Virus record (IMG/VR): IMGVR_UViG_3300044676_000856
Location: 1 to 35,005 of that record
Source of the DNA: a virus
Lineage: Duplodnaviria > Caudoviricetes
DNA length: 35,005 nucleotides
Strand: one strand, 5' to 3'
The translations under genes were made by a program, and so were the position numbers. Shown one piece after another: positions 3,443-25,650 of this stretch; the stretch's first letter is position 1; the number at the start of each line of letters is the position of its first letter. The notes below the pieces were generated by a model that searched no databases, was not told the DNA's origin, and was given only the letters and a program-made list of their open reading frames with translations.

Positions 3443-3877
3443 TTAAGCCGCCGCCACCTTGTCAATGTCGTAATAAGGAATGTTGCTGTATCTGGGCAAT
3501 TTATCGGTCATGATAAAAACACCTGTCGACGGTTTTACAAAAACTCGCTCGTCAAAGTAAAATCCTGCGGGGGAAAGCAACTCGCTGTCAGTCATTACAT
3601 ACTTGGTTGAAACGTAAATAAGCTCTACTTTTAAACTGCCTTCAAGAAGCTCTATCTCTCTAAGGAACTGAGCAGCATGAACCGCATCTTCGTTTTCGAT
3701 CAACCAAGTTTGATGATCCATCAAATCAAATCCTTCTTCGTCCTTCCATTTTTTAAAAAGAGATCTTTGGTGAGCTGACGCTTTTCTTGCGACATCAGCA
3801 TCGATGTTGCATTTTGCAAACTCTTCTTTAGCCTTTGCGATTTTTTCTAAAACAATTTCGTGGTACTTGTTCATCAT
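3443..3877 (-). CDS. Hypothetical accessory (early) protein
   Basis: Start moved to ATGATG at 3877 behind AAGGAG; AT-rich; ends VAAA*. Confidence 0.7.
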   Translation of the reverse strand: MMNKYHEIVLEKIAKAKEEFAKCNIDADVARKASAHQRSLFKKWKDEEGFDLMDHQTWLIENEDAVHAAQFLREIELLEGSLKVELIYVSTKYVMTDSELLSPAGFYFDERVFVKPSTGVFIMTDKLPRYSNIPYYDIDKVAAA

Positions 3878-3905
3878 CTTCTCCTTGCGGCGGCTTACGC
3901 CGCCT
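3870..3905 (-). repeat. Gene-junction module, copy 1 (hairpin with AA-stop, RBS, ATGATG)
   Basis: AGGCGGCGTAAGCCGCCGCAAGGAGAAGATGATGAA; identical except for one indel to 25616-25650 (+). Confidence 0.9.
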
Positions 3906-4416
3906 TCCTTGTTGCTGTTAATGTTGCATCCCCGTACCATCCTGAGACTCTTGGCTTCCAGCCATCAACCTTGAGTTCTTCGGCCCTAGCATATGCCTTG
4001 CGAATGTCCGTGAATCTTTCGTGGATTCGATCAACCTTTTCTTCTTTAGGTGCGGGATAAAGATCTTGGCCTTGACGCTTCTCAATCAACTTGCGAAGAG
4101 AGGCAACGTGATCGGTCATTGCTTGATACTGGAGGTTGTTTTTGCGAGCAGCTCGAAACTCTTCGTCGTAGTGGTCGAGGCCGTTTAGGTCGATCAACTT
4201 CATACCAGCAAGCTGGCCTTGAATGGAGTTGATGATTTGAGTTGTTAGCTTGTGGCTCTTCTCAATCGGAAGCTCATTCGATCCCGGGCACTCGCCCTGA
4301 AACATCCCCCAATCGACGGTGTAGCCGTGCTTAGCAATCATGCCGGTCTTGTTGTTAACCGCCTGCACTGAACCGCATACTTGGCAGGTTCCTCTGTGTG
4401 TGTGTCTTGCCATCAT
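3895..4416 (-). CDS. Hypothetical accessory protein with putative Zn-binding CxxC-H-C motif
   Basis: Start moved to ATGATG at 4416 behind AAGGGA; GTCQVCG...AKHGY...GECPGS; ends RKAA*. Confidence 0.7.
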   Translation of the reverse strand: MMARHTHRGTCQVCGSVQAVNNKTGMIAKHGYTVDWGMFQGECPGSNELPIEKSHKLTTQIINSIQGQLAGMKLIDLNGLDHYDEEFRAARKNNLQYQAMTDHVASLRKLIEKRQGQDLYPAPKEEKVDRIHERFTDIRKAYARAEELKVDGWKPRVSGWYGDATLTATRKAA

Positions 4417-4433
4417 GTTTTCCCTTTGGTTAT

Positions 4434-4506
4434 GGGGGCAAGCGCCCCCGACAAAGGAATAATCGCATAATGCCGTGTCGTTGTACACACTTTTATGCAA
4501 ATAAAT
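4434..4506 (-). promoter_or_regulatory. Putative early promoter plus 5' stem-loop of left cassette
   Basis: TGTACA (4487-4482), 17 nt, TGn-GATTAT (4464-4459); spacer contains CGACACGG; upstream ATTTATTTG; followed by hairpin GGGGGC-GCTT-GCCCCC (4434-4449). Confidence 0.55.
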
Positions 4507-4521
4507 GTAAATATTTGCAGG

Positions 4522-5235
4522 TCAGTCTAAGTTGTTGTACCGCTCGATCAGGCGCTTCTTGTCGTGCAGCCAGAAAACCAACAGGTATCGGTCTCCACTC
4601 TCTACCGCTAAACCACGGTGCAGATTGGTGAAGGAAGGGAATATCAATGCGTGTCCACTGGGCAGAGGATTCAGGATGCCGTGGCGATGAAACTCTGTGC
4701 CACCACCCTTGTACTCATCGGTGTTGAGGGGAACCACCACGCTGATGTCGGCGCTCTCGTCGTGATGCCACGCACCTTTTTGCTTATCCTTGGGGTTATA
4801 GTTTGCAATCTGGATCGAGGAAACGTCCCGGCAGTCCCTGTGGTACAGCGTATTGAAGATCGGATTCAGCACGTTCTGCACGACAAACCACATCGTGCGG
4901 TACAGCTCAGGCACATGCTCTTGCAGCACAATCTCTGGGATCTGCCTCAGCTCATCCTCAGCCTCATTCGGCTCAAAGGGTATCTCCTGCTCCATGTGCT
5001 TGATCTCTTCGACCAACATCTTGCAGAACTGCCTGCGAAACAACGGCACCTTGTATACCTCGGGGAAGACCTTCTTGCATAGCTGAGACACAGGAGTCTT
5101 CTGTAGGCGCTCCCTGCCATCCCTAGCCCTGAACTCAGCAATCATCGGAACAGTCGCCTGAACCGCCTTGTAGAGCGGCTGGTTGACCATCCAATGCGAC
5201 TGCATTGACAACATATAATTTTTCATTTCATACAT
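4522..5235 (-). CDS. 2OG-Fe(II) oxygenase (PLOD/lysyl-hydroxylase C-terminal-like); start codon uncertain
   Basis: HHD..DISVVVPLN..Y.GGGT.F, GHALIFP...LHRGL.V.SGDRYLLVFW: HxD...H triad and 2OG-binding Arg. Confidence 0.85.
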   Translation of the reverse strand: MYEMKNYMLSMQSHWMVNQPLYKAVQATVPMIAEFRARDGRERLQKTPVSQLCKKVFPEVYKVPLFRRQFCKMLVEEIKHMEQEIPFEPNEAEDELRQIPEIVLQEHVPELYRTMWFVVQNVLNPIFNTLYHRDCRDVSSIQIANYNPKDKQKGAWHHDESADISVVVPLNTDEYKGGGTEFHRHGILNPLPSGHALIFPSFTNLHRGLAVESGDRYLLVFWLHDKKRLIERYNNLD

Positions 5236-5272
5236 TTGTGCAATGATATACAATCCTATACAATTGCTCAAT
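5236..5272 (+). promoter_or_regulatory. Putative promoter with 10-bp-phased direct repeats
   Basis: TTGTGC (5236-5241), 17 nt, TACAAT (5259-5264); TGTGCAAT/TATACAAT/TATACAAT at 5237, 5247, 5257. Confidence 0.5.
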
Positions 5273-5290
5273 ATTAATTAGAGATCCGTC

Positions 5291-5467
5291 ATGGAAACCG
5301 AAGACCAAGCAGCGTTAGACAGAAAAAGAAAGTCGCTGGCGATTGACCTCGAAACATACGAGAGGCTACGCGACATCTGTGCGCGAGAGCGACGAACAAT
5401 AATCAGCCAGTTGCAACTTATGATTGAGCAGAAGCACGACGACCTGTTCGATAGGGATAATCATTGA
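5291..5467 (+). CDS. Ribbon-helix-helix (Arc/CopG-like) DNA-binding protein, 58 aa
   Basis: Hand translation METEDQAALDRKRKSLAIDLETYERLRDICARERRTIISQLQLMIEQKHDDLFDRDNH*; KSLAI strand, helix, RRT turn, helix. Confidence 0.7.
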   Translation: METEDQAALDRKRKSLAIDLETYERLRDICARERRTIISQLQLMIEQKHDDLFDRDNH

Positions 5468-5736
5468 AAAATTTATTTAAGAGAAGACCGACCCAGATTC
5501 CTCAATCCTACCGCCCTGTAGCGGATTCTAAAGAGGTTATCGATCTATTTGGTAGGATGACCTTACACCAACAAGCCGCGCTCCTGCGGCTCTGTAGTCG
5601 CAACCTGATGATCGACATTGACGGTGATTACCACATGGGCTATGACTTCGACTGGAACGTCAGTGGCGCAATGATCATCGCCACCCCAGCCGAGCCAGAC
5701 CTACCAATGCTAGGCGAGGGAAGCGATCCCGCCTAA
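5464..5736 (+). CDS. Hypothetical protein
   Basis: TTG start overlapping the RHH stop (TTGA); converges on and overlaps the end of 5710..8310. Confidence 0.55.
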   Translation: MKNLFKRRPTQIPQSYRPVADSKEVIDLFGRMTLHQQAALLRLCSRNLMIDIDGDYHMGYDFDWNVSGAMIIATPAEPDLPMLGEGSDPA

Positions 5737-8310
5737 TGGCCCTCTGAGCCGCATAGCAAGCTCCCTGTCCTTGTCTGAGGGCAGAATAGTAGGAGACATC
5801 GCCGGATCTATCTTTCCCATTGCTGGAGCCGTTGATGGCTTCTGTGATAGCGGTTCAAATGCAGGCGAATCCATTCCAACATCTGGCACATACATGCTGT
5901 CTAGGATAGAAGGCTTTGGAGATGCCGGAGCCTTTGGGCCGGTCACTTCTTTGGCGCTCTCAATCATCCTTGCGCCTTGAACGCCTCGCTCTAATTGACC
6001 CGTCTCTGGGTTGACCTCATCAGGCTTGAAGCTTTCATCTGTTAGCTGATCAAAAACATCTGTAGCGCCGCGAGAAACCGCCTGCGTGACAAAATAAACG
6101 CCGGGCTTTACTGCATCTATTTGTGCCGCCAACTCTCCAGCCACCTTGGGATCTATTAGCGCCTCAATAAGCTTGTCCTCGTAGGCCTCTCTTTGAAAGC
6201 CAAGGGTAGCTGACATGGTGTCATCAAAGCCACGAATTGCGATTCTCTGGGGAATCTCCACGACAGCCCTGAGCGCATTGGCCGCAATTCGACCACCGCC
6301 GGTAACGTCTTTCTCTAAGAAGTTTCTGAGCGCCAACAACGGCTGTGTTGGTGATCCACCCTGCGTAGCAATGTAACTTGTTGCCTGCATCATCTCGACG
6401 AGATCAACAAAATTCTTTAACTCTTGCGGATCCATCATAGCCTCAAAGACCTTTGCCTTTGTGCCTCTGGCCTTAGCTCCACCGCGACCCATCATTACCT
6501 TTCCGCGAATCCCGAGCCTCGACAAAAATTTATTCTGAACACCTAGAGGGTTGATGCTTGATGTAATTGCATCGTCAAACTGTGTGCGTAACCATGTGCC
6601 TTTGATGTTCTGCCAAACCTGCGGGTCTTGGGTCTGGATAAGTCGTCTAAGATCTCTAATATCTTTAGGTTTGGCTGTACCGTTGAACAACCTCTTGGTT
6701 ATCCTCGCCGCAGCCTCTCCGCCTAACTCAGCCGCCTCAGCAAAGCTCCTGACAACGCCACGCTCTAAAGCCTGAAGGTGACCCTTTGAGGGATCATAGA
6801 TTGCAGCAGCTCTAGCATATTCTGGGTTGGCAACCTTTAATCGCTCAGAAACCTGCGCCCTGATTTGGCTAACCTCTCGCTTTAACCCTCTCTGCCCATC
6901 TTTAGTAAGACCCTCGATAAGCGGCCTGAAATCGTTGGTTAGGGCGTTATGTAGCATCTCAGTGTTATCTTTTAGCCCCATCTCGGCTCGATTAGATCCC
7001 CTGATGGGCACTTTGTTAGGAGAAAATCCAGTGAAGTCGCTAAGCGCATCAACCATTGCCTGCTTAATGCGTCTAGCTTCGCCTCTTAGATTTGCGTCTC
7101 CCAGCTCAGCCTCAAGCTTTGTCACAATGTCAGAAACGTCAATGGGTATGTCCAGCTCAAAGGCGTTCTTGTACACCGCGCCAGCTCTTTCTTGACGCTT
7201 GGTCGCAAGCTTTTTTAATACCTCGTCAGCAGCCTTAGCTAAATCTGACTCTGGGTCTAAAGCCGTCCTTCCCGAAAGCCGAGCTTGCTTCAGATCTTGC
7301 AGGTATTTGCCCCGAAGGATCTCGTCAAAAAAAACGTCAGCGGCTTCCTCGACCTGCATTTGTCGGTTGTGGTAAAAGTCCCAGAGCTTTTGTGAGCCGG
7401 GCTGCATCTGTAGGTAACGCTGAATCTGGCCAGCGTTTGACATTATTCCTTGAGCCTCTGCTCTTGTAAGGTCTACATTGAACTTCTCTTTCGCAAACGC
7501 GATCTTTTCGTCAACAGTCTTTCCACCGTCTGTCAAAATAGTCTGCAAGGCGGTTCTACCATCCCCACCGGGAAATTTCTTTGATGTGGTTCTAAACGCA
7601 TTACCAGCAAGCTGAGCGGCCTTCGTTCCGAACGGTAACGCGCCAAAAGCCGCGCTTACCATCAGGTCATCTTTTAGCTGAGAGACTTTCAAGGGAGGCC
7701 CGTCAAACATGGCAGATATCCCCGCCCTGCCTGCATAAGCCGCGCCGCCACTTGCTGCGGTGCCCGTGCTTCCACCTCCCATAGCGCCAGCAATAGCGCC
7801 AATAGGATTTCCTGTGGTTGCTGCACCTAAAAATGCGCCGCCCACTAAACCTACCGTGCCACCACCAAGTTCAGCTAAAAATTGCGCTGTCGGCCCTGCC
7901 CATCTGGCTGAGTCAACCAGCAGGCTATCCCTGAACTCCTTTACTGGCTCGTTGGTGTATGGGTCTATGTATGCGATATCGCCTTCTTCATCTAAGAAGT
8001 AAAAGTCAACGGGGTCGATGCCCCTTTCAACTAGCTCTGGGAACCTTTGCTGAGCAAGCCAAGCTGTCTGGTAACCTTGGTCGTTCGACATGCCCTGAAG
8101 CAACGCCATCCCGACACCAGATTTGTTTTCTTCTCTCTCTAAAAGAGCTTGTTCTCTAGGGGAAGGTGCAACGAGCTGAGACGTTTGAGCCAGCATGTTG
8201 TTTCTGTGTAGCTGAACAAATTCAGGAGTGTTTGCCAAATCCTCTTCCGTAACGCCTTCTTCAACTTCGTAAACAATCCCGTCATTGTTGTAGTTAATCT
8301 TTACAGGCAT
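5710..8310 (-). CDS. Large internal virion / DNA ejection protein
   Basis: 866 aa, last gene of late operon; Gly/Ala-rich hydrophobic hairpin near aa 150-200 followed by long helical region, as in podovirus injection proteins; ends GGIASLA. Confidence 0.65.
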   Translation of the reverse strand: MPVKINYNNDGIVYEVEEGVTEEDLANTPEFVQLHRNNMLAQTSQLVAPSPREQALLEREENKSGVGMALLQGMSNDQGYQTAWLAQQRFPELVERGIDPVDFYFLDEEGDIAYIDPYTNEPVKEFRDSLLVDSARWAGPTAQFLAELGGGTVGLVGGAFLGAATTGNPIGAIAGAMGGGSTGTAASGGAAYAGRAGISAMFDGPPLKVSQLKDDLMVSAAFGALPFGTKAAQLAGNAFRTTSKKFPGGDGRTALQTILTDGGKTVDEKIAFAKEKFNVDLTRAEAQGIMSNAGQIQRYLQMQPGSQKLWDFYHNRQMQVEEAADVFFDEILRGKYLQDLKQARLSGRTALDPESDLAKAADEVLKKLATKRQERAGAVYKNAFELDIPIDVSDIVTKLEAELGDANLRGEARRIKQAMVDALSDFTGFSPNKVPIRGSNRAEMGLKDNTEMLHNALTNDFRPLIEGLTKDGQRGLKREVSQIRAQVSERLKVANPEYARAAAIYDPSKGHLQALERGVVRSFAEAAELGGEAAARITKRLFNGTAKPKDIRDLRRLIQTQDPQVWQNIKGTWLRTQFDDAITSSINPLGVQNKFLSRLGIRGKVMMGRGGAKARGTKAKVFEAMMDPQELKNFVDLVEMMQATSYIATQGGSPTQPLLALRNFLEKDVTGGGRIAANALRAVVEIPQRIAIRGFDDTMSATLGFQREAYEDKLIEALIDPKVAGELAAQIDAVKPGVYFVTQAVSRGATDVFDQLTDESFKPDEVNPETGQLERGVQGARMIESAKEVTGPKAPASPKPSILDSMYVPDVGMDSPAFEPLSQKPSTAPAMGKIDPAMSPTILPSDKDRELAMRLRGPLGGIASLA

Positions 8311-9702
8311 TTATTCCCCCGACTTCGGAACTTTTTGAATAGTAATACCAGATAGGTCAGTATTTACCGAGGGCGAAGTTTGCATATCAGCAAAGAAACT
8401 CTCCCTAAAGGCTTTTGCAGCTTCAGGCTCTTGTGATGCTAAAGCCTGCAATTCAGACCTTTCTTCCGCCGTCAAAAATTGGTTCTCAGACTTTTGCCGC
8501 CAAGAAAGTTCCCACCCTTGGGCCAGCCGAAGTTTATCCGAATCAGTTTCCGCATCCTTCAAAAGCCCTTCTGCAACGGCCTTATTGTAATCCTCAGCCT
8601 TCTTTATGTTTAAATTGGCGATCCTTTGCAAAAAAGCCGCCTGCTTCATTGCGCCGTTATAGGTGGAAGAAAGCGTTGGGGACGCGGCAAGAAACAGTCT
8701 CATCTCCATTTCTGTGATCGCGCCTTTAGTTTCGCCAATTAATCCCATTGCTATTCTGGTGCCCAAGGTCAGCGCGAGCTGTTGATTATCGAGACTTTCG
8801 TCCGGCCTAACACCAAGCTCGCTCAAAACCTGCCTAGCAGGTAGGGTGCCAGTCGCTATCCGCCCCCAACCTTCTGGGCCAAGTCTAGCGAGTTGCAACA
8901 TAAATTGATTTGTTAACTGGTTCTGAGAAACAGCAGTCGAGGCATCTTTAATCCATTTCTCTTCTAACTCGATTAAAGCCTCCCCGGCTTTTTTCTCTAA
9001 AGTCGAAGGAGGCATGACCCTGCTATCAACACTAACGGTAGAAGTCGGGAGTTTGATTTGCTTAGCGCCCGGAATCATCCTGATAGCTGCAACTTCAAGT
9101 TGATTGCTCGGGTTCACCTCTACAGTTTTTACCCCCCCGTCCTCTGTAGGCACTTCGTAAATTATTGGAGCATACGGCTTGTTAGCAAGCTTTATTCTTT
9201 CAAGCTCGATCTTGTTCAGATAATCTTTTGCAGCCTTTTCGTCAGTTATAGCCATCTGCATTGCCTGCAAGCCGACCTGTCGATCAAGCGCGATCCTGCT
9301 TTCTTTAGACTTCCGAAGCCGATCGTTGAAGTTAGAAAAGCCAACTCCCGCACTGCGGAACGCACCAGCCGTCGGGTCAGCAGAAAGCATTGCTGCGCCT
9401 ATATCGGAGGCCAAGTCATAAAAAGTTGGGCGCGTTGACTGAGAAAAATACGGCTTCAACCGCTCGGCATACTTTTTATAACTCTTGTCAAAATCAAAAG
9501 GCTCTGGGGTTTTTGGCTTCATGGCGGCAAGCATATTGTTAATTTGCGCTTGCATCGGATCAACGGTTGTTTCTGGAGCTTCTGGTTCAACCTCCAAAAC
9601 TTCGGTCTCTGAAACCACTTCGGGTGTCTTCGAGGGATCAATAATCCCGCCGTCAGCAAGCCGTTGGATCTGCTGCTCTAACTGCGCTCTTGATGTGGCC
9701 AT
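8311..9702 (-). CDS. Internal virion / ejection protein
   Basis: 463 aa helical; LADGGII motif; KGAITEMEMRLFLAASPTLS segment; position in ejection cluster. Confidence 0.6.
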   Translation of the reverse strand: MATSRAQLEQQIQRLADGGIIDPSKTPEVVSETEVLEVEPEAPETTVDPMQAQINNMLAAMKPKTPEPFDFDKSYKKYAERLKPYFSQSTRPTFYDLASDIGAAMLSADPTAGAFRSAGVGFSNFNDRLRKSKESRIALDRQVGLQAMQMAITDEKAAKDYLNKIELERIKLANKPYAPIIYEVPTEDGGVKTVEVNPSNQLEVAAIRMIPGAKQIKLPTSTVSVDSRVMPPSTLEKKAGEALIELEEKWIKDASTAVSQNQLTNQFMLQLARLGPEGWGRIATGTLPARQVLSELGVRPDESLDNQQLALTLGTRIAMGLIGETKGAITEMEMRLFLAASPTLSSTYNGAMKQAAFLQRIANLNIKKAEDYNKAVAEGLLKDAETDSDKLRLAQGWELSWRQKSENQFLTAEERSELQALASQEPEAAKAFRESFFADMQTSPSVNTDLSGITIQKVPKSGE

Positions 9703-11778
9703 TTATCGACTCCCAGAAAGCTGGTTAGACGGGTTGTAGTAATTACCCAGCGCCCCAATCGTTGCAAGACCTGTTCCTATGCCTGCCTGCGTTGCAGACG
9801 GCGCAGGCCCAAAGTTGGTTTGGAACTGCGTCTGACCCGCTGGTGCCATCTGGACAAACGGCATCAGAGACTGGTACTGAGCCAGAGGTGCCTGCTGTGC
9901 TTGCAACAATCCAGCGCGTTGCGCGTCAAGCTGTTGCTGCCTGTTCTGCTGAGCCATGCCTCCGATGCCCTGCATTGCGGCGACATCCTGTGCGCCTGCC
10001 TGCTGAGCCTGACTGCCAAGTCCGCTCAGGAAGCCACCATAGCCCGTCTGAGCCTGACCAAGTGCCTGACCTCCAGCCGCTTGCTGCGCTCCGATTTGGC
10101 CGTACTGGCCAGCAAGAGTGCCTGCTACGTTCATTCCTGTCTGTCCTGCCGCCTGTCTTGCTGCCGCGCTCTGCTGACCGTAGCCAGACAATGTCTGACC
10201 TAAGCCGGTGCCAGCCGCGTATCGTTGCTGCGCCATCTGTCCTAGCTGGCCACCTAATTGCTGCTGAGCGCCCAACTGCGCTTGAGCGGTTTGCTGGAGT
10301 AGATTTCCATAGCCTTGTCCAGCCGCAAGTTTCTGCCCTGCCGCCTGTTGAGCCATGCCAGCGACCTGCTGGCCTGCGCCATACCTTTGCTGGGCACCTT
10401 GTCCCAACATGCTGGCTAAGCCTCTAGAAGCGGCCAGCTCGCTCGCTGCGCGTTGTTGTCTTGAGCCGGCAATGTTTTGCGCGGCCCCAAATCTTTGTTG
10501 AGAGGCCTGTTGCGCTCGATCTACTAATCCTCTTGCGCCACTCAGCTCTTGACCGGCCAATGATGCCAATCCAGAAGATGCAGCTCTCTGAGCCTGTCTT
10601 TGTCGCTCATCCTCTCCAATAGCCGTCTGCTGAGCCTGCTGGAAGCCGCGTGAGCGTAATTCTCCAACAGCCTTACCCAAACCCCTGCCCATTGCCTCGG
10701 CTCGCTCTTGGCCAGTTAGCCTAGCCCTAGAGCCAAAGGCCGACTGTCCGCCGGTCTGAATATCTCTAGCAAGCTGAGCAGTGTCTTGCTTAGCCAGTCC
10801 CTCTCTAGCATCTTCGATCATCTGCTGAACGACTTGATTCTCGTAGGGGTCTTGGTATTTAGCAGTAGCGCCTGCTACGTCAAAATCGCCAGTAGTCTGC
10901 CGTAACTGCCCCCGGGCTTCGCCTACATTTTCTCCAAAGCCACCAAGAAGCTCTCGCTCCGCGCCAACCTGTCTGTCAAGGTCTCGGCCTAATCGTGAGG
11001 CCGCGCCGGTCAAACCAAGCTCTGCTAATCCCAATCGTTGACGCTGAACGTCACCGGCCTGAGCGGCAATCTGTTCGCCGCGCTGCAAACCTCGGTCTAA
11101 TCCTTCTGCGCTGATCATTCCCATGCCAAGCGAATCGGTTATGTCGCGCCCGAACTCGTCATATGACCTTCTGCCCTGCTGTCGAGCACTGGCCAAGTCC
11201 ATGCCAAATCTTTGTGTATCCCTAATACCACGGCGAGAGAGGTCGCTTATATCTCCACGCAGACGCTCCTCTGCCGCAATGGCCCGTCCACGGCCCTCCT
11301 GAGTCCCTCTGAGCGACTCCATCAAACCTCGATCTCTTTGGTCGAGTGCGAAGCGAGAACCCTCCTGCTGGGCTTGTAAGGCCTGCTGTGAGGCTACGGC
11401 TTGATCTGCTAATCCTTGCTGAATGGAACCAATACCCTCTTGGCCTCTTCGCATAGCCTCATCGATAAATGGTTGTTGCACACCGACATTGGCTCTGGCC
11501 ATTTCCATAGCCCTGATCTGGTCTGGGCTGAAGCCTGCAATCTCCTGAGGTATGACAATCGGGCGACCCTCTTCATCGAAGAAGGTGCGCTCTGCCGCTC
11601 GGAACGCTCCCGGGATAAAGCCGCCCTGACCGTCCAAACCAAACAATAGCTGCTGAGTTATCGGATCTATGCGGGTCTCGGTCTTGGTTACGCCAGAGAC
11701 GTAAGGTTGTGTCGTAGCTGCTCCACCCTCTTCAAATCGACGGACGCGAGAAAGCTGTCCGGGGGTTAATATGCTCAT
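9703..11778 (-). CDS. Gln/Ala/Gly-rich internal virion (DNA transfer) protein
   Basis: 691 aa; IAGFSPDQ..A, Y.DPY...V, AFGSR, L...GFQQA motifs and C-terminal hydrophobic GIGTGLATIGALG typical of podovirus pilot proteins. Confidence 0.65.
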   Translation of the reverse strand: MSILTPGQLSRVRRFEEGGAATTQPYVSGVTKTETRIDPITQQLLFGLDGQGGFIPGAFRAAERTFFDEEGRPIVIPQEIAGFSPDQIRAMEMARANVGVQQPFIDEAMRRGQEGIGSIQQGLADQAVASQQALQAQQEGSRFALDQRDRGLMESLRGTQEGRGRAIAAEERLRGDISDLSRRGIRDTQRFGMDLASARQQGRRSYDEFGRDITDSLGMGMISAEGLDRGLQRGEQIAAQAGDVQRQRLGLAELGLTGAASRLGRDLDRQVGAERELLGGFGENVGEARGQLRQTTGDFDVAGATAKYQDPYENQVVQQMIEDAREGLAKQDTAQLARDIQTGGQSAFGSRARLTGQERAEAMGRGLGKAVGELRSRGFQQAQQTAIGEDERQRQAQRAASSGLASLAGQELSGARGLVDRAQQASQQRFGAAQNIAGSRQQRAASELAASRGLASMLGQGAQQRYGAGQQVAGMAQQAAGQKLAAGQGYGNLLQQTAQAQLGAQQQLGGQLGQMAQQRYAAGTGLGQTLSGYGQQSAAARQAAGQTGMNVAGTLAGQYGQIGAQQAAGGQALGQAQTGYGGFLSGLGSQAQQAGAQDVAAMQGIGGMAQQNRQQQLDAQRAGLLQAQQAPLAQYQSLMPFVQMAPAGQTQFQTNFGPAPSATQAGIGTGLATIGALGNYYNPSNQLSGSR

Positions 11779-16813: not shown

Positions 16814-16817
16814 ATGA

Positions 16818-18191: not shown

Positions 18192-18511
18192 GACGTAATT
18201 ACCTCCACAGTACCAACACTACAGGTTATCCCAAAAGTTTGCAAAGTTGTGCCCAAAATTCCATCTCCCACGTTGGTGTAGACGGTAAAAAAATTGTTAT
18301 CGTTCCCATCAGCAGCTTGGTCTGGCCTTGTGATCTGCAATGCCTGCGGGTCAAAGGGCGCAGGCTTGGGCATAAGCTGCGGGTGTTTTGGTGACCATTG
18401 GTCTGGCCCAACCAAAAGGCCATCCCAAGTCATCTTCATATCCTTCAGGCGATAGCGAAAACCCGTGATATCACAGATTCCCCAAGCTTTCTTGTTGGAT
18501 GCGTAAGCCAT
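18188..18511 (-). CDS. Conserved phage hypothetical protein
   Basis: A.GICD.TGFRY....M...W.GL.V....W.PKHPQL...DPQAL...RP. Confidence 0.65.
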   Translation of the reverse strand: MAYASNKKAWGICDITGFRYRLKDMKMTWDGLLVGPDQWSPKHPQLMPKPAPFDPQALQITRPDQAADGNDNNFFTVYTNVGDGILGTTLQTFGITCSVGTVEVITS

Positions 18512-19206: not shown

Positions 19207-19885
19207 CTTCGTCACCCGCGTATAGGTTGTTAAAAACCTGATTTACGTCAAGAGTATAGTCTAAATCACTTTTCGAGTAGTGAATATGCTGGCTTGGTTT
19301 AAAGTCTGGGGCACCATCCCCTGTCTCAAACCAAGCAGGGTGTGTTACCCGTACTCTGTTGTTAGGTAAAGCAACAATGTTGCCCGTCCACTCTCCAGCA
19401 TCAAGCAGCTCTAAAATGTGGCTTTGCTTGTGTTGAGCTGGGTCATCCGCTATCTCATTTTCTGCATAATCCACTGTGAGATAATACTTCGCTGGATAAA
19501 ACTCACCATCAATCTTGGCAAGCCAAGGGCAAGGTGTGCAACGGTCAAGGACGTAAGTAGCGTGATTATAAGAACTGCAATCCCAAGGTTGAGCAGCCCA
19601 GACAGGCATTGCCTCAGGCCAATCGTCAAGTGGCGTGTCAGCAACCAAGGCCGTGATAGGCATTCTTGCCCACATGGCTCCACCATGTGCGTTTTGCTCA
19701 TCGTCATCGTCGTATGTCTCTGCGCCGGTAAAAATCACCTGAAATGACAAGCACCGAGTCGGCATGGTGGTTACAGCAATGGCCATCGCATGGATGAACT
19801 CCCCATGATACTTCTCATGGTTGTGCGTGTACTCCTTCCGAACCCAGCACTTGAAGTGAGGGATGTTGCTCTGAAGGTACGCCAC
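19187..19885 (-). CDS. Conserved phage hypothetical protein
   Basis: 232 aa; YLQSNIP.FKCWVR.EY, GGAMWARMPITAL, QPWDC.S, QHKQSH, PNNRVR. Confidence 0.75.
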   Translation of the reverse strand: MAYLQSNIPHFKCWVRKEYTHNHEKYHGEFIHAMAIAVTTMPTRCLSFQVIFTGAETYDDDDEQNAHGGAMWARMPITALVADTPLDDWPEAMPVWAAQPWDCSSYNHATYVLDRCTPCPWLAKIDGEFYPAKYYLTVDYAENEIADDPAQHKQSHILELLDAGEWTGNIVALPNNRVRVTHPAWFETGDGAPDFKPSQHIHYSKSDLDYTLDVNQVFNNLYAGDEDGGKRK

Positions 19886-20319
19886 TATCTACGACCAAAT
19901 AATCCCGTCTTTTTGGCGGATGGTTTCTTGATTCCGCCTTTTGCTGCGCCCTTGGTCTTCATCGCGGCACCGCCTTTAGCGTAACCTTTAGTTTTCATGG
20001 CTGCACCGCCCATGTTCATGCGGCGAGGGCCAGTACCTCTTACGCCAGCTTGTCTCCTGCCTCTTTTTACGCCTTTCGCTGCGGACATATTGGCCTCTTT
20101 GGCCGCGTTCAAGTCGCCGTACATGCCGGTTAATCGCTGCACTTCAGCAGGATTTTGCCCGGTTTCCTTGGCGTATGATTGAGCTTGACGTAACAAATTC
20201 TCTTGAGCAGAACTTAACTTAGGCGACTTTTTGCCCGGACGAACAATTTCATTTCCCGGCTTTTTCATACCCATTGGAGCGCCGCCACGACTGTACCCTT
20301 TTGCCTTCATCTTTTTCAT
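19885..20319 (-). CDS. Basic Lys/Gly/Met-rich low-complexity protein (possible internal head protein)
   Basis: Repeats of KGYxxGG / MKTKGxAKGG; ends GLFGRR. Confidence 0.65.
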   Translation of the reverse strand: MKKMKAKGYSRGGAPMGMKKPGNEIVRPGKKSPKLSSAQENLLRQAQSYAKETGQNPAEVQRLTGMYGDLNAAKEANMSAAKGVKRGRRQAGVRGTGPRRMNMGGAAMKTKGYAKGGAAMKTKGAAKGGIKKPSAKKTGLFGRR

Positions 20320-20630
20320 TATTGCCTCCCAAATAAACCGGAATTACCGGGTTTTTTCCTGATAGATCCGCCATGAGCGGCGAATGTTTTCACCATTGTA
20401 GGCTTTCCGCCCACACCTTGTCTCTTAGATCTTTTTCGCGCTACCGCACTTTTTTTCTGACCTTCCGTCATGCTTGCGGCTTTTGCCGCCGGTACGCACT
20501 TTGGGTAAGCTCGGCCATTTTTTTTTGATGCGTTTTTTCGGCCACACGATTGATACTTGCCATCCTTCTTTGGGGCACCGATATCTACCCAATCTTCGCT
20601 AAACCATTTCTTTAGCCCAGTTCTAGCCAC
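20319..20630 (-). CDS. Small basic conserved phage protein
   Basis: GLKKWF.E.WVD, CGR, YPKCVP..KA..M, ends GLFGRQ. Confidence 0.7.
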   Translation of the reverse strand: MARTGLKKWFSEDWVDIGAPKKDGKYQSCGRKNASKKNGRAYPKCVPAAKAASMTEGQKKSAVARKRSKRQGVGGKPTMVKTFAAHGGSIRKKPGNSGLFGRQ

Positions 20631-20877
20631 GGGGCACTTTTACCATTTTACGCTTAGATTCCATAACCGCACCACAGCCTTTTGGCTTCATGAAAACCGC
20701 GCCACCCTTGTTCATTTTCTTAGGAGTCTTGTAAGTGCCGCCCATCTTCTTGTATTGCTTCACCATGTACGCATTTGCGTATGCTGACGGATAAACGTCA
20801 AACTTTGCCTTTGCCTTGGCCTTTGCCTTGGCGTAAAGGCTCGGGTTAGCTACATTTTTAGGGGCAGAAGATTTCAC
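20623..20877 (-). CDS. Small basic conserved phage protein
   Basis: NP.LY...K..AK.KF.VYPSAYAN...V..YK..GG.Y; GTG start. Confidence 0.7.
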   Translation of the reverse strand: MKSSAPKNVANPSLYAKAKAKAKAKFDVYPSAYANAYMVKQYKKMGGTYKTPKKMNKGGAVFMKPKGCGAVMESKRKMVKVPRG

Positions 20878-20879
20878 AG

Positions 20880-22892
20880 CTACCGCCTCCTTCTAGAACC
20901 TGCGTATGAAAACTTAGGAGCCGCTTGCAGTGCTGGGGCTTGCGTAACTTGAAATGGCCCTGAAAAGCTCCCGTCCGGAGGTATCTCTCCTGCAAGAAAT
21001 CCTGACCCGGTATTGCCCATTGAGCCAACTGGAGCATTGCCGTAAAAGTCAGCGGATGCCGACCCACCTTGTCCGTAAATGCTTTGATTGCCTCCGCCCA
21101 TTGAGCCTCCGCCAGCAGGGTTTAAAGTTTGCTGATTATAAAAGTCAAGATAGCCAGAATTATCTACAATGCCTTGATTACCTACGCCGCCAGAGCCTCC
21201 GCCAGCAGGGTTGAAACCAGCCGCCTCTGAAGCTGAAGGGCCAACGTCGATATATCCGGTTGGAATGTTGCCGCCCATAAAGTTTTCATAGGGCGTTCCG
21301 CTAAACCCGGGGCTGGGTTCAACAACAACGTCGCCAACATCTACATCTGTGCCGGTGCCACCCGTGCCGCCGCCAGCGGGAGGTGCTTGATTGGCCATCT
21401 GAGCCATGATGTCTTCGGTAATTTGTTTGCGTAAGGCCTCGGTGTCAACCTCCCCGGGTATTTGGCCGCGAAGCGCCTCAATCTGCTGCTGTACAGGGTC
21501 TAGGGCGGAAGTGATGTCCGTCTGCCTTTGGCTTGCAATCGACTCAGACAAGCCAGACAGGTCGTCTTGGGTCAAACCAGCAGCCTGCAACGCCTCTATC
21601 CTTGCGGCGAGGTCAGTTCTTTCTGTGCCAGCAGTGTCAATTGCCTGCTGAAAAGCAACCGTCTGGTCGTTGACTGTGGCAAGCTCTGCCTGAATCTGGT
21701 CGATCGGCAGAGCACCAAGGTTTTCTTGAATGCCACCTATCCTGCTTTCTAAGCCAGAAATTAATTCAGAAACCTCTCCACGCAACAATTCAGATTGATC
21801 CACATTCCCGGTTTCTACATCGCTGTAAAGAGATTCTAACTGTGCGTTTAGGTCGTCAATCTCGGTTTGTGCCGCTAGAGCAGATTCCTGCGAGGCTTGG
21901 TTAAGACTTAAAATTTCGGAGTCAATACGCTCATTAATGGCCGCGAGATCAGAGCTTACACCCTCGATTCTTGTAGAAAGATCTGCGGTTCCAGAAGCCT
22001 GCTGCCCTGAAAGCTCATCAATTTGCTGAGCAAGCGCAGTATTATCGGTTGAGAGGGCTGCTATCTGCTGTTGCAGTTCAGGTATTGGGAGTTCGCTTAA
22101 CTGGCCTGTAACGCCGCTAATTTTGCCTTCTAGGCCTGCAAGCAAGCTTCCGGTCTCTGCTCTTAAAGCTTCTGACTGAGCTAAATTTTCTTCGTTAATT
22201 GACTGCTCTATAGTCTTGAGCTGGTCGTTAAGGGATGTAATTTCATCTTGAGCGAGCTGAGCCGAGGCCTGCTGGTCTTGGTCGAGCTGCAAATACTTTT
22301 CATCGATCGTTTGGTTAACCTGAGTAAGATCTTCGCTGAGAACACCTATTCTCTCTTTTAAATCGCCAACCAAAGAACCTTGCCGGTCTTCCAAGTCGCC
22401 AATGGCCTGAACCTGCGCCTCTCTAACCAGCTTGTCGCCTTCTTCAATCTGGCGAGCAAGCGCAGCCCTCTCGTCGAGTCCAGCTTGGCGAAGATCTATG
22501 GTTTCTGCGTCAACGCCACGACGCATATCCTCTATCTGCGCCTCAAGAGACTTGGAAAGCTCAGACCTCTCGCCCAGAGCCGCCTGCTCTGACGTGGCAA
22601 GGTCTTCTCTCAACAGGTCTCTTAGGCTGTCAATTTCCGTCTGACGAGCCGCCGCAGATGCCTCTTGAGCATCTCTCTGCTCCGCCATTATCTTCTCGTA
22701 CTGATTGGCCAAAAGCTGGTCAGTATCTGGAGTAATAGCGTCAAGCGTTCTCATCGTTGGAGCCGCTGGCGCAGCCCTAGCGCCCCTATCGTAAGCTGGG
22801 CGCTGCATCAAATAATCGCTTAGACTGGCATAAGGGGATGCTGAGCTACCGTACTCGTCCTGAGCTGCCTGTAAATCGCTGGATATAGCCAT
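20880..22892 (-). CDS. Acidic coiled-coil protein with internal duplication and Gly-rich tail
   Basis: 670 aa; heptad pattern over about 450 aa; two similar blocks 127 aa apart. Confidence 0.75.
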   Translation of the reverse strand: MAISSDLQAAQDEYGSSASPYASLSDYLMQRPAYDRGARAAPAAPTMRTLDAITPDTDQLLANQYEKIMAEQRDAQEASAAARQTEIDSLRDLLREDLATSEQAALGERSELSKSLEAQIEDMRRGVDAETIDLRQAGLDERAALARQIEEGDKLVREAQVQAIGDLEDRQGSLVGDLKERIGVLSEDLTQVNQTIDEKYLQLDQDQQASAQLAQDEITSLNDQLKTIEQSINEENLAQSEALRAETGSLLAGLEGKISGVTGQLSELPIPELQQQIAALSTDNTALAQQIDELSGQQASGTADLSTRIEGVSSDLAAINERIDSEILSLNQASQESALAAQTEIDDLNAQLESLYSDVETGNVDQSELLRGEVSELISGLESRIGGIQENLGALPIDQIQAELATVNDQTVAFQQAIDTAGTERTDLAARIEALQAAGLTQDDLSGLSESIASQRQTDITSALDPVQQQIEALRGQIPGEVDTEALRKQITEDIMAQMANQAPPAGGGTGGTGTDVDVGDVVVEPSPGFSGTPYENFMGGNIPTGYIDVGPSASEAAGFNPAGGGSGGVGNQGIVDNSGYLDFYNQQTLNPAGGGSMGGGNQSIYGQGGSASADFYGNAPVGSMGNTGSGFLAGEIPPDGSFSGPFQVTQAPALQAAPKFSYAGSRRRR
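21103..21212. repeat. Exact 20-bp direct repeat (NPAGGGS peptide)
   Basis: GAGCCTCCGCCAGCAGGGTT at 21103-21122 and 21193-21212. Confidence 0.85.
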
Positions 22893-23812
22893 TAGATGCC
22901 AATGCCCCTTATTCTCATGTTTTGCATGATCTGCCTGCGTATTGCTTCCATATCCGGCGCATCCATCTCTCGCCGGTTTCTTTCTGCAAAGTATTGCTCA
23001 GGAGGCGGCGCAAGCATATTTTGCAGAGGAGCTTGCATGCGCGGCTCATCTCGTTCCGACTGAACTCTACGCATGAGATCTCTGAACATGCCTCCACGGG
23101 GCATAGGTCTATCTTCCCGACCTCGCATCTGCTCGGTAAGCTGTGCAATCCGTCCCGCTAAACCGCCCCTTTGTCGATAAGAATCTTTGATCCTGCGACT
23201 CGGAACCTTTCTGCCTTTGCCGCCGCCCTTTTCGTCTCTGTCATCGATACGGTTTCCATTTCGGTCTTGAAAATCGTTAGTCCGCATCATTGGAGGAAGC
23301 TGGCCTTCGTCCCCAAAAATATCATCTAGGATAGAAGGTCTTGGAGGTCTCCGGCCTTCGCTTCCGAAAGGATTCTCGAAAATAGGAGGTCTTGGCGGCT
23401 TTGGTGGTGCCGTCTTTATGTAATCAGGAAAGTCACCGCGCTGTGGCTTTGGGGTGCGATCTAGAATTGGGAAATCAACTATCAAATCGTCGTTCCCACT
23501 CGGAACCGGCACAGTATCTGGGTACTGCCCGGGGCTTCTTTGTCCGCCTTGCAGCCTTTGTAGCATTTCTGCCAAACCCTCGATACCGCCAGAGCTGCCG
23601 GGAATTTGTGGCATTTGCTGTTGCTGTGGAGCGACTCCGCCAGCCGCTTGATCTTGCATGGCAAAGAGTTTCGCCTTGAGCATCTCATACTGAGGGGTGC
23701 CCTCTTGCATCTGGTTCAGTTGCGAATTCATGTACTGAATTTGCGGATAAAGGGGGCTGGCTTTTATTCTTTCCTGCCGCTCGTAAAACTCTTTGGGTGC
23801 TGCAAAGCTCAT
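22892..23812 (-). CDS. Pro/Gln/Arg/Met-rich, probably disordered protein
   Basis: 306 aa ORF coupled to neighbours; low complexity; DxNxNxxDDRD calcium-binding-like loop (DRNGNRIDDRD). Confidence 0.65.
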   Translation of the reverse strand: MSFAAPKEFYERQERIKASPLYPQIQYMNSQLNQMQEGTPQYEMLKAKLFAMQDQAAGGVAPQQQQMPQIPGSSGGIEGLAEMLQRLQGGQRSPGQYPDTVPVPSGNDDLIVDFPILDRTPKPQRGDFPDYIKTAPPKPPRPPIFENPFGSEGRRPPRPSILDDIFGDEGQLPPMMRTNDFQDRNGNRIDDRDEKGGGKGRKVPSRRIKDSYRQRGGLAGRIAQLTEQMRGREDRPMPRGGMFRDLMRRVQSERDEPRMQAPLQNMLAPPPEQYFAERNRREMDAPDMEAIRRQIMQNMRIRGIGI

Positions 23813-23818
23813 ATTAGG

Positions 23819-24112
23819 TCACCAATTTTTACACGACCAGTAAGAGGCCGCGAAAACGTCTTTTTTCTTCTGAACCGAGTCGCAATTGTGCCTCGCACGA
23901 AAATTGCGCCTACGCTCAGGGTTATCTCGCTTGATTTCCATGTTACTGTCGCCGTAGCGAACCACCTTAACTTGATCACCCTTCTTGGCTAGAACCTTAA
24001 ACTTCTTGCTCTCGCCGGAGGTGCGAACCTGCTTGTTATAGCCGGGGAACGTCTGGCCGCGATACCGCAGCCGTCCGCTCTTTAACCGCTCTACGTCAGA
24101 GGTGGTAGCCAT
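23819..24112 (-). CDS. Small basic conserved phage protein
   Basis: KKFKV.......VKVVRYGD..M.IK...P.RR.NFRARH.C......A.YWSC..W; TGATG coupling. Confidence 0.7.
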   Translation of the reverse strand: MATTSDVERLKSGRLRYRGQTFPGYNKQVRTSGESKKFKVLAKKGDQVKVVRYGDSNMEIKRDNPERRRNFRARHNCDSVQKKKDVFAASYWSCKNW

Positions 24113-24516
24113 CAAGCATACTCTTTTATGACTTCTAAAATGACGGTGTAAGTGTCCGCACTGCTTGCGCCGATTGTCGTGAACAGAATGTCCCCGGTCA
24201 CACCGCTGCCGGCATTATTAGGAATGCCGGTGAAGTCAGAGTAATCGTGGAAACCATTGCTGTCTGGTGACAAGCCGATGATTAGGGTATTTACTGTTGC
24301 ATCGCACAATAGCTCAACCCCCATCCCAACACACTGCCACCATATCTTACACACGGTAACTTTAGTGCAAGCTTTACCGGCAGAGTTAGCCGTCAAGGCT
24401 GAGACATCAACCTTGACTACATTCGCTTCTCCGGTTCCGTCACTAATGTTAGTGAATTTAAGGACAGCCTTACGCTCTCCATCCTGAATGGTTTGACTTG
24501 TTACTGCATCTGCCAT
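24112..24516 (-). CDS. Virion structural protein
   Basis: MADAVTSQTI.DG.R.AV.KFTN.SDGTGE..V.KVDVS.L, NNAGSG.TGDI.FTT; AGGAG RBS. Confidence 0.65.
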   Translation of the reverse strand: MADAVTSQTIQDGERKAVLKFTNISDGTGEANVVKVDVSALTANSAGKACTKVTVCKIWWQCVGMGVELLCDATVNTLIIGLSPDSNGFHDYSDFTGIPNNAGSGVTGDILFTTIGASSADTYTVILEVIKEYA

Positions 24517-24538
24517 TGCCTATCTCCTATTCTGTGGA

Positions 24539-25048
24539 TTAAGCGTCAGCGAAGGGCGTAACAATCGTTCCTGAACCAAGCAGTAAGGTGTTATGTACAA
24601 GGTAGCTGGCTGTATCAATTGCTGTTACCTGAATGACGCTACCGACCAAACCGCCTTTGGTTGATCCGTTCAAAGTCATCACGTCGTTCGCGGCAGCGGG
24701 GAAGAAAGCTTTCATTGCGCCGTCATCGACAGCAACCATCGCTGCACCTTTGAACTTGTCAGTGCCATCGGTAAGGATGTCCAAGTCAGTGGCTGCGGTT
24801 TCAATGTAGAAAAAGAAAGACGCGCCAATGTTGTTGCCTTGGTTTGGAGACGTTGGGTCAGCGGGAGTGCTGGAGTCGATAGATGGCAAGGTGAACTTAC
24901 CGTCTGCGTCGTTGAGCAAAATAATCTTGCCAGCGTGAGCCGCCACGGTAAGCGTGGTGTCTGCTGATAAGCTGATGCTGCTGTTTACGCCTGCGGTGAT
25001 GAAGCCACCAAGCGAGCGTACTGGGCCGGAGAATGTTGTTTGTGACAT
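24539..25048 (-). CDS. Virion structural protein (possible head decoration)
   Basis: M..TTFSGPVRS..GF N-terminus, LT...HAG, TLP, LNG.T.GG..G, GSG...TPF; GAGG RBS. Confidence 0.65.
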   Translation of the reverse strand: MSQTTFSGPVRSLGGFITAGVNSSISLSADTTLTVAAHAGKIILLNDADGKFTLPSIDSSTPADPTSPNQGNNIGASFFFYIETAATDLDILTDGTDKFKGAAMVAVDDGAMKAFFPAAANDVMTLNGSTKGGLVGSVIQVTAIDTASYLVHNTLLLGSGTIVTPFADA

Positions 25049-25056
25049 TAGTATAA

Positions 25057-25140
25057 CCTCTTTACGAAAGGATTCGCCCCAGAGTCTTCGTAAACGTCTG
25101 CTGAGTCAGTCGCTGGGGCTGGGTTTATCTCAGACCTACA
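25057..25140 (-). ncRNA. Candidate pseudoknotted cis-regulatory leader RNA
   Basis: Stem GCCCCAG/CUGGGGC (25119-25113 with 25082-25076); enclosed UUUACGAA (25094-25087) pairs 8 bp with UUCGUAAA (25068-25061) abutting RBS; upstream GUCUGAG can pair with CUCAG or CAGAC. Confidence 0.6.
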
Positions 25141-25182
25141 GTCTATGACAACTGGGCAGTAAAAAAAAGTTCATTTATTTCG

Positions 25183-25230
25183 ATTTATTTGTGTATACAT
25201 TGTTGCACATCGACACGGGATCAGTATAAT
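25183..25230 (+). promoter_or_regulatory. Putative strong early promoter of right cassette
   Basis: TTGCAC (25203-25208), 16 nt, TATAAT (25225-25230); spacer contains CGACACGG; AT-rich upstream with ATTTATTTG. Confidence 0.7.
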
Positions 25231-25257
25231 AAAGGACATCAACAACGCAAACGGAGA

Positions 25258-25626
25258 ATGATGATGACAGTTAAAGTTTACCAGTTTCACCTAACGCAAG
25301 CCGACGAAGCTCTTTTGAATAAAGATGGTTGGCTGGCTTCAGAAAAGATCACCGCCTACGCCGACAAGGGCTGTAGCTGGAAAATCGAAGACGGTAGCTA
25401 CGATGCAGCAAAATGGTTCCACGCTTACTCTCACGTTGCCACGGTAGATTCCGATGATCTGGACGAGGTCTTTCACCTCACGAACCTTTGGCACAAGCCT
25501 GAGCTGGTAGAGAAGCACTCAAGAATGCACAGCGTTTCTGTCGGTGACATCTTGGAAATGAACGGCGAGTTCTTCCTAGTAGCCGGATGCGGCTTTGAAG
25601 CTCTTAACATAAACGAGGCGGCGTAA
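25258..25626 (+). CDS. YodL-like domain protein
   Basis: Start moved to ATGATGATG 25258 behind GGAG; VYQ, Y..VA, LDEVF..TN, HSVSVGDI....G..F.V...GF; ends NEAA*. Confidence 0.65.
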   Translation: MMMTVKVYQFHLTQADEALLNKDGWLASEKITAYADKGCSWKIEDGSYDAAKWFHAYSHVATVDSDDLDEVFHLTNLWHKPELVEKHSRMHSVSVGDILEMNGEFFLVAGCGFEALNINEAA

Positions 25627-25650
25627 GCCGCCCAAGGAGAAGATGATGAA
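25616..25650 (+). repeat. Gene-junction module, copy 2
   Basis: AGGCGGCGTAAGCCGCCCAAGGAGAAGATGATGAA; matches 3870-3905 (-). Confidence 0.9.

What the first reader, a model, noticed from the sequence alone, without database searches (positions are those of the whole stretch)
3870..25650. Shared 36-bp junction module links two distant, inverted accessory cassettes: a possible gene-shuffling system
Seen: AGGCGGCGTAAGCCGCC(G)CAAGGAGAAGATGATGAA occurs at 3905-3870 (-) and 25616-25650 (+), identical but for one indel, while flanking genes are unrelated. One unit encodes the end of the upstream protein (xAA-stop), a 6-bp stem with a GNRA loop (GTAA), a strong RBS and the Met-Met start of the next gene. 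Established: PeSL elements of T4-like phages shuffle genes by recombination between repeated regulatory elements, and phage recombination systems can use short homologies; a RecE-like gene is present at 1773. Inference: a plug-and-play junction that lets accessory genes be swapped between cassettes or genomes without an integrase, always in an expressible state. Recombination between these two inverted copies would invert about 21.7 kb.
Basis: partly seen in the sequence, partly recalled or inferred. Interest (0 to 1): 0.85.

Follow-up and report, generated by a model that had tools for sequence, protein, structure and literature searches.

The report
Stop-codon hairpin joints shuffle phage genes
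In a group of uncultured coastal phages, many small accessory genes end in a tiny hairpin that holds the stop codon in its loop and is followed by the next gene's ribosome-binding site; related phages differ by whole genes swapped at or next to this joint, likely through recombination over its short shared sequence.

Summary
The repeat is real (3905-3870 minus, 25616-25650 plus, one indel). The conserved unit is smaller than 36 bp: a 6-bp hairpin whose 5' arm encodes Ala-Ala, with the stop codon in the loop, followed by an RBS, a T-tract (terminator) or a hammerhead. It marks gene joints in two or three hypervariable accessory slots of about 50-kb coastal phages. 162 such joints link about 87 upstream and 92 downstream families in 149 pairs; window gene A has 6 partners and gene D 8. 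The stem covaries (50 of 51 unselected copies pair), so the structure is selected. The same hairpin sits in bacterial rplE-rpsN and exbB-exbD operons. Breakpoints are enriched at the hairpin but also fall at plain RBS and promoter boundaries. No 21.7-kb inversion product was seen, and no RecT, Erf, Rad52 or Sak4 gene was found; a serine resolvase is present in 4 of 4 near-complete relatives. A type III hammerhead at 3429-3380 is a second joint type. Verdict: PeSL-like gene shuffling at promoter-less joints, a new variant of a known kind. This scan has reported similar joints in other phages.

The parts
4458..4490 (-). Slot-1 cassette promoter (inferred), with the conserved spacer motif CGACACGG at 4480-4473
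   Evidence: Sequence; motif conserved upstream of slot genes in relatives; not flagged by the sigma-70 scan
3895..4416 (-). Gene A, 173 aa, ends RKAA; unknown function (phrog_17208)
   Evidence: 6 downstream partner families
3870..3905 (-). Junction copy 1: hairpin 3904-3889 with the stop TAA (3897-3895) in the loop, RBS 3886-3881, ATG ATG from 3877
3443..3877 (-). Gene B, 144 aa, ends VAAA; absent with the hammerhead in relatives where A joins C directly
3380..3429 (-). Type III hammerhead ribozyme (predicted): GUC site, intact CUGAUGA/GAAA core, between the stop of B and the RBS of C
   Evidence: Rfam RF00008 29.4 bits, E 0.019, below the gathering score 48.5; structural search; fold
2957..3364 (-). 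Gene C, 135 aa, ends GEAA; last gene here, internal gene in relatives
2944..2966 (-). The same stop-in-loop hairpin (loop TTAG) followed by T8: cassette terminator (inferred)
   Evidence: z -3.55; 11 of 27 slot-1 breakpoints fall here
25203..25230 (+). Slot-2 cassette promoter (inferred): TTGCAC, CGACACGG spacer motif, TATAAT
   Evidence: not flagged by the sigma-70 scan
25261..25626 (+). Gene D, 121 aa, ends NEAA; weak YodL-like match (E 0.027, below cut-off)
   Evidence: 8 downstream partner families
25616..25650 (+). Junction copy 2: hairpin 25617-25632, stop 25624-25626 in the loop, RBS 25634-25639, ATG ATG from 25643
   Evidence: 7 of 30 slot-2 breakpoints
25643..25882 (+). Gene E, 79 aa; preceded by 3 other genes in relatives; missing in a contig of run X8 that joins the hairpin to gene F
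25896..26102 (+). Gene F, 68 aa, weak HTH match; plain RBS joint upstream that is also an exchange point
26087..26116 (.). Terminator between the capsid gene (minus) and slot 2 (plus); likely works in both directions
1773..2543 (+).

Best explanation
The repeat is a gene-end RNA hairpin (Ala-Ala codons in the 5' arm, stop codon in the loop) fused to a standard ribosome-binding site, and it likely doubles as a 16-36 bp homology patch through which co-infecting relatives swap whole accessory genes. Shown: the joint recurs between many unrelated gene pairs, its stem covaries, and close relatives diverge at it. Inferred: the hairpin is kept first as an RNA structure. Followed by a U-tract it would terminate the cassette; without one it would be a pause or 3'-end barrier that separates one gene's message end from the next gene's own RBS. 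Because many genes carry this end, short-homology recombination between two such ends, or between their RBS/ATG parts, would exchange, add or delete exactly one gene, or turn a last gene into an internal one, without breaking a reading frame. Hammerheads and the cassette promoter would act as further shared patches. The enzyme is not identified; general host or phage recombination is assumed.
For: 162 distinct joints, about 87 upstream and 92 downstream families, 149 pairs; 26 of 28 upstream families seen twice or more have 2 or more partners (motif-selected loci, single-linkage clusters). Close relatives (98-99% exonuclease identity) carry A-B-C, A-C, A-H-C-K-L, A-C-K, B-C and other strings in slot 1. 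Covariation at the variable stem pair: 145 G/C and 122 C/G, 0 mixed, in all loci; 18 and 32 with 1 mismatch in loci fetched by protein anchors only. Two non-Ala-Ala ends keep the stem by double changes. Stop-in-loop stems occur in 26 of 104 slot families but only 4 of 1397 non-slot ORFs. Breakpoints: 5 of 27 at the module and 11 of 27 at the terminator copy in slot 1; 7 of 30 at the module in slot 2 (binomial p 9e-4, 2e-12, 3e-4 against length share). The spacer follows the downstream gene more (similarity 0.84) than the upstream gene (0.73) or neither (0.57), and exchanging partners share the stem type in 93-98% of pairs against 49%. A contig of another study lacks gene E exactly between hairpin and next RBS. 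Precedent: PeSL recombination with crossovers in loop or SD region (PMC2839356 passages).
Against: Plain joints also exchange: partner differs in 24 of 33 hairpin pairs (4 of 5 families) and 6 of 8 hammerhead pairs (4 of 5) but also 40 of 108 plain pairs (5 of 12 families); family-level Fisher p 0.10; pairs are not independent. The plain RBS before gene F has 4 of 30 breakpoints, and gene A is deleted in L097 between RBS regions, not at the hairpin. 120 of 170 distinct slot gene ends have neither hairpin nor Ala-Ala. Shared stem type may reflect clade rather than homology. Many loci were fetched by the motif, which favours it. The hairpin also sits in fixed bacterial operons (rplE-rpsN, exbB-exbD). 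No single-strand annealing protein was found. RBS accessibility is not clearly better behind hairpins (0.55 against 0.51, p 0.09). No recombination event or RNA end was observed directly.
Confidence: 0.6

Rival explanations
1. Illegitimate recombination plus selection: breakpoints form anywhere and only those at gene boundaries survive. The hairpin is an ordinary gene-end structure that travels with its gene and plays no part in exchange.
For: Plain, RBS and promoter boundaries also carry breakpoints. The hairpin moves intact with the upstream gene when stem types differ (L460 against L206). The motif exists in bacterial core operons. This is the standard alternative to boundary-sequence models (PMC3029335 passages).
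Against: It does not explain why dozens of unrelated genes share a near-identical 16-30 nt end that core genes of the same phages lack, nor the 54-nt near-identical hammerhead between different gene pairs. Hairpin joints are about twice as labile in pair counts.
Confidence: 0.25
2. The palindrome is a site for the phage's serine resolvase, giving integron-like site-specific cassette exchange.
For: A Resolvase (PF00239) gene is present in 4 of 4 near-complete relatives and lies beside a third accessory slot. Symmetric changes would also fit a palindromic binding site.
Against: Both stem types occur in one genome. Crossover positions spread over hairpin, RBS and start codon. The motif occurs in loci of 39-69% GC and in bacterial operons. 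Serine recombinases cut at a fixed 2-bp core within longer sites (general knowledge, not tested here).
Confidence: 0.07
3. The selected feature is the C-terminal Ala-Ala, a ClpXP-type degradation signal that makes early accessory proteins short-lived; hairpin and homology are by-products. This is not exclusive of the best explanation.
For: 32 of 104 slot families end in AA against 32 of 1397 non-slot ORFs; 13 distinct AA ends have no hairpin. Stem variation is almost confined to synonymous Ala codons (GCG 82, GCC 80). Terminal Ala-Ala is critical for ClpXP tags (PMC10862746 passages).
Against: That paper finds Ala-Ala necessary but not sufficient, with Leu favoured upstream and neutral or basic tags enriched; here position -3 is Glu in 36, Lys in 13 and Leu in 3 of 87 families. 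Ribosomal protein L5 ends the same way in several sphingomonads. The 3' arm is non-coding and still covaries.
Confidence: 0.15
4. The two inverted copies act as an inversion switch that flips 21.7 kb.
For: The copies are inverted and share 35 of 36 bases; a serine recombinase exists in relatives.
Against: 0 loci join the post-capsid gene to the exonuclease or the oxygenase to the capsid gene, against 91 and 79 loci in the normal arrangement (redundant; only 14 distinct close slot-2 and 8 close slot-1 relatives bear on it). No inversion contig among the listed contigs of 7 runs (tables truncated, contigs drop rare forms). The flip would turn the tail genes against the capsid operon.
Confidence: 0.03

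Closest known systems
PeSL (promoter-early stem-loop) cassettes of T4-type phages (Arbiol 2010, PMC2839356; Comeau 2014, PMC4122927)
   Same: Repeated intergenic element with a GC stem-loop, SD and start codon in hypervariable regions; single ORFans gained, lost or swapped at it; no dedicated recombinase shown.
   Different: No promoter inside the joint; only 16-36 bp; the stem overlaps the upstream gene, with its stop in the loop and Ala-Ala in the arm; the phage is a 50-kb non-T4 type; mini-circles not tested.
Short conserved boundary sequences of mosaic phage genomes (as summarised in PMC3029335; the primary papers were not read)
   Same: Homologous recombination at short shared sequences at gene boundaries is proposed to create mosaicism.
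   Different: Here the boundary is a covarying RNA hairpin that doubles as terminator, shared by about 87 gene families.
Clustered hammerhead ribozymes flanking single prophage genes (Perreault 2011, PMC3088659)
   Same: Hammerheads between small, non-constant accessory genes, proposed to cut transcripts into single-gene messages.
   Different: Here type I and III hammerheads alternate or combine with the stop-in-loop hairpin and appear to be exchange points; cleavage was not tested.
Ribosome termination structure, RTS (Chemla 2020, PMC7518266; abstract only)
   Same: Stable mRNA structure at a gene end that may insulate the next gene, which has its own RBS.
   Different: RTS lies immediately downstream of the stop; this stem straddles the stop and has a conserved sequence.
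Integron attC cassette arrays (recalled, not from a call)
   Same: One hairpin per gene at the 3' end of exchangeable cassettes.
   Different: Far shorter than attC, and the GTTRRRY core (recalled) is absent from the aligned joints; crossover is not at a fixed base.

Membership tests
PeSL | sigma-70-like promoter within each repeat | tested here: not met
   No -35/-10 in the joint; the promoter-like motif lies at cassette starts
PeSL | GC-rich stem-loop acting as terminator or attenuator | tested here: inconclusive
   Stem present and covarying; U-tract only in terminal copies; activity not measured
PeSL | SD and start codon at the 3' end | tested here: met
   80 of 94 distinct contexts have an ORF upstream and one downstream
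PeSL | Located in hypervariable regions, with indels bounded by the element | tested here: met
   Slot 1 is 741-4084 bp with about 100 families; breakpoints enriched
PeSL | Mini-circles formed between neighbouring copies | not testable with these tools
   Only assembled contigs were available
Hammerhead ribozyme type III (element 3429-3380) | CUGANGA and GAAA core, NUH site, three stems | tested here: met
   35 raw hits against 0 in sequence read backwards
Hammerhead ribozyme type III (element 3429-3380) | Rfam RF00008 gathering score | tested here: not met
   29.4 against 48.5 bits; 0 gathering-level hits in 12 related loci
Hammerhead ribozyme type III (element 3429-3380) | Self-cleavage | not testable with these tools
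   No raw RNA reads among the runs offered
Integron/attC cassette array | attC core sites and crossover at a fixed base | tested here: not met
   Joints aligned show no such core; crossovers vary in position
RecET-type recombination module | ExoVIII plus an annealing protein (RecT, or Erf, Rad52, Sak4) | tested here: not met
   Exonuclease present; 0 of 5 records for each of PF03837, PF04404, PF04098, PF13479; divergent members could be missed
HTVC023P-type pelagiphages | Related major capsid protein | tested here: inconclusive
   60-64% identity to HTVC023P, 023Pt_psg01 and DSL-LC04 capsids; relatives have a VapE/Toprim primase-helicase; membership and host not established
ssrA-like ClpXP degron | Terminal Ala-Ala with hydrophobic, non-acidic upstream residues | tested here: inconclusive
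   Ala-Ala met; upstream mostly Glu or Lys; degradation not measured

The most novel reading that the evidence does not exclude
These phages run a natural parts standard: each accessory gene is closed by one of a few interchangeable RNA devices (stop-in-loop hairpin, self-cleaving hammerhead, terminator, promoter) that serve at once as expression insulators, as a shared Ala-Ala degradation tag and as targeted recombination handles, possibly served by the conserved serine resolvase, so that a pool of about 100 genes is assembled combinatorially into three fixed slots.
Probability: 0.15. Interest if true: 0.8.

Novelty: new variant of a known kind. Interest (0 to 1): 0.45.

Why it matters
Whether phage mosaicism comes from random joins plus selection or from recombination at short shared boundaries is a long-standing question. 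Here about 150 natural gene pairs share a defined 16-36 bp joint that comes in two compensatory versions, which gives a ready test: exchange should follow sequence identity if homology drives it, and only structure if it does not. The slots also give a compact natural case of hammerheads and hairpins used as interchangeable gene separators. The principle itself (PeSLs, gene-flanking hammerheads) is published, and this scan has met similar joints in other phages, which limits the surprise.

Tried and rejected
The repeat finder did not list the pair among its longest inverted repeats. The sigma-70 scan missed both cassette promoters. Rfam at gathering level found nothing in 12 related loci, so hammerheads rest on my structural search. 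Opposite-strand terminator reading: flagged for both window copies, but only 15% of 87 families have 5 or more A in the 8 bases before the stem; not general. RBS insulation by folding: no clear gain. GNRA recognition: rejected as essential, since 47 of 162 loops are not GTAA or GTGA. RNA evidence: RNA run X15 was contigs only and cannot show ends or strand. The 236-aa gene at 476-1183 has no Pfam match; Atlas neighbours are unnamed phage proteins with a weak DUF669 lead, so an annealing role is neither shown nor excluded. GTDB scan gave 40 scattered hits and no host clue; 9 passed my junction filter. The 58-aa ORF at 2916-2740 was treated as spurious and left out of junction counts, as was family F3. 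Literature searches returned no paper on this stop-in-loop Ala-Ala joint; the library lacks most subscription papers, and no supplements were read.
Full report
Observation. Each holds the last two Ala codons and stop of one gene, a 6-bp stem with the stop in its 4-nt loop, an AAGGAG ribosome-binding site and an ATG ATG start. The longest distant inverted exact word in the window is 18 nt against 13-17 in 20 codon shuffles; here an exact 17-mer and an exact 18-mer lie side by side, which chance does not give.

Context. The window is a 35-kb fragment (67% complete) of a tailed phage: terminase, portal, capsid, GroES and structural genes on the minus strand, exonuclease VIII operon at the left. 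Its capsid is 60-64% identical to DSL-LC04, 023Pt_psg01 and HTVC023P; membership of that group and the host are not established. Runs that hold it are estuary and marine metagenomes. The copies lie in two small cassettes: slot 1 (about 4490-2944, minus; genes A, B, C) between a 2OG-Fe(II) oxygenase and the exonuclease operon, and slot 2 (about 25203-26116, plus; genes D, E, F) antisense behind the capsid gene. Both start with a related promoter-like motif. A third slot with the same promoter motif and joints lies in relative G002.

Relatives. An exact viral scan gave 15 loci with 7 gene pairs counting the window. Protein-anchored scans show slot 1 varying from 741 to 4084 bp with about 100 gene families (simple gene caller, single-linkage clusters). 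Slot 2 is filled in a narrow clade and empty (176 bp) in L303 and L305. With degenerate and variant patterns, 162 distinct viral or metagenome joints link 87 upstream and 92 downstream clusters in 149 pairs; 26 of 28 upstream and 34 of 36 downstream clusters seen at least twice have several partners. Gene A has 6 partners and gene D 8. 80 of 94 distinct contexts of the degenerate pattern have an ORF on both sides, in loci of 39-69% GC. These sets were selected by the motif.

What is conserved. The unit is the hairpin, not the 36-mer. It comes in two forms, GGCGGC/GCCGCC and GGCCGC/GCGGCC, which differ by a compensatory swap that is synonymous for Ala: 145 and 122 copies with no mixed stem, and 18 and 32 with one mismatch in loci not chosen by the motif. 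Two ends that lost Ala-Ala kept the stem by double changes. Both forms occur in one genome. Behind it comes an RBS, a T-tract (window 2966-2944) or a hammerhead. It closes 26 of 104 slot families and 4 of 1397 non-slot ORFs. It also occurs in bacterial chromosomes, for example rplE-rpsN and exbB-exbD, so it is a gene-end RNA structure in its own right.

Breakpoints. BLAST ends against the window fall at the module in 5 of 27 (slot 1) and 7 of 30 (slot 2) cases and at the terminator copy in 11 of 27, well above length share; others fall at promoters or first codons, at a plain RBS (4 of 30) and in genes (3 and 8; four of the 8 are within a few bases of the start codon). Among near-identical flank pairs the spacer follows the downstream gene more than the upstream gene, and some exchanges keep the whole spacer up to the ATG, so crossovers spread over hairpin, RBS and start. 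Partner change is seen in 24 of 33 hairpin pairs, 6 of 8 hammerhead pairs and 40 of 108 plain pairs; at family level 8 of 10 against 5 of 12, p 0.10. The joint is a favoured but not exclusive exchange point. Run contigs agree: X7 has another gene in front of the full module and a module followed directly by the hammerhead; X8 lacks gene E between hairpin and next RBS.

Hammerheads. The B-C joint holds a type III hammerhead (Rfam E 0.019, below gathering). A structural search found 29 distinct contexts (22 type I, 7 type III; 28 GUC, 1 GUU), all within 30 nt of an RBS and start codon, with 0 hits in the backwards control. One near-identical 54-nt type I element lies between several different gene pairs. 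Gene-flanking hammerheads in prophages are published (PMC3088659, section 6 and passages).

Mechanism. Shown: recurrence, covariation, combinatorial neighbours and enriched breakpoints. Inferred: RNA function of the hairpin (terminator with U-tract, barrier without) and recombination through the shared patch. The RecE link lacks its partner: RecT, Erf, Rad52 and Sak4 families were found in none of the records searched, 4 of them near-complete, whereas a serine resolvase is in 4 of 4 near-complete relatives; variable crossover positions argue against its use here. The inversion has no support, though the test set is small. The Ala-Ala degron is possible but weak: acidic residues dominate upstream and ribosomal protein L5 can end the same way.

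Comparison. It works like a PeSL (PMC2839356: part 1 of 6 and passages; PMC4122927: part 1 of 3) but fails membership because the joint has no promoter. It fits the boundary-sequence model (PMC3029335 passages) and differs from the RTS (PMC7518266 abstract) by straddling the stop. Eight literature searches found no description of this particular joint. Earlier notes of this scan describe similar stop/RBS joints and hammerhead arrays in other phages; none matched this sequence; I did not test them.

Verdict. Real, widespread and well supported as a marker of gene exchange; a new variant of a known kind; interest 0.45.

Noticed in passing
window 3429-3380 (-): Type III hammerhead between genes B and C; 29 distinct hammerhead contexts in relatives, each between a gene end and an RBS.
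   Followed up: yes
window 4480-4473 (-) and 25211-25218 (+): Conserved CGACACGG motif in the spacer of the cassette promoters of many relatives; possible binding site of a phage or host regulator.
   Followed up: partly
L513:6639-7427, L514:15452-16240, L517:3879-4664: Serine resolvase (PF00239, 262-263 aa) conserved in 4 of 4 near-complete relatives, beside a third accessory slot; role unknown.
   Followed up: partly
L514:1-5673 against window 5675-1: Record G002 is 99.97% identical to the window over 5.7 kb but carries a different structural region: a module-scale recombinant or a chimeric assembly.
   Followed up: no
window 25203-26116 (+): Slot 2 is an antisense cassette inside the virion gene run, present in a narrow clade and empty in L303 and L305; late transcription must read across it or restart.
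   Followed up: partly
L376:1501-1524, L381:1501-1526: The same stop-in-loop hairpin plus RBS joins rplE-rpsN in sphingomonads and exbB-exbD in Ramlibacter.
   Followed up: partly
L114, L122, L163, L164, L103 slot-1 3' ends: Other recurrent unexplained intergenic motifs after the last gene (containing GACAGAAAG, or GCCGTAGCTCGACCCTGCAAG) that may be further structured RNAs; no Rfam hit at gathering level.
   Followed up: no
L292, and a contig of run X7 (joint 2965-3880): Module followed after about 12 bases by the terminator hairpin with no gene between: an apparently emptied cassette position.
   Followed up: no
L006:2140-3010 on the cassette strand: A 289-aa slot gene ending in the module resembles ArdC-type anti-restriction proteins (recalled from its motifs, not tested).
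   Followed up: no
window 21078-21126 and 21168-21216: 49-nt direct repeat at 90-bp spacing inside the 670-aa structural gene, probably a protein repeat.
   Followed up: no
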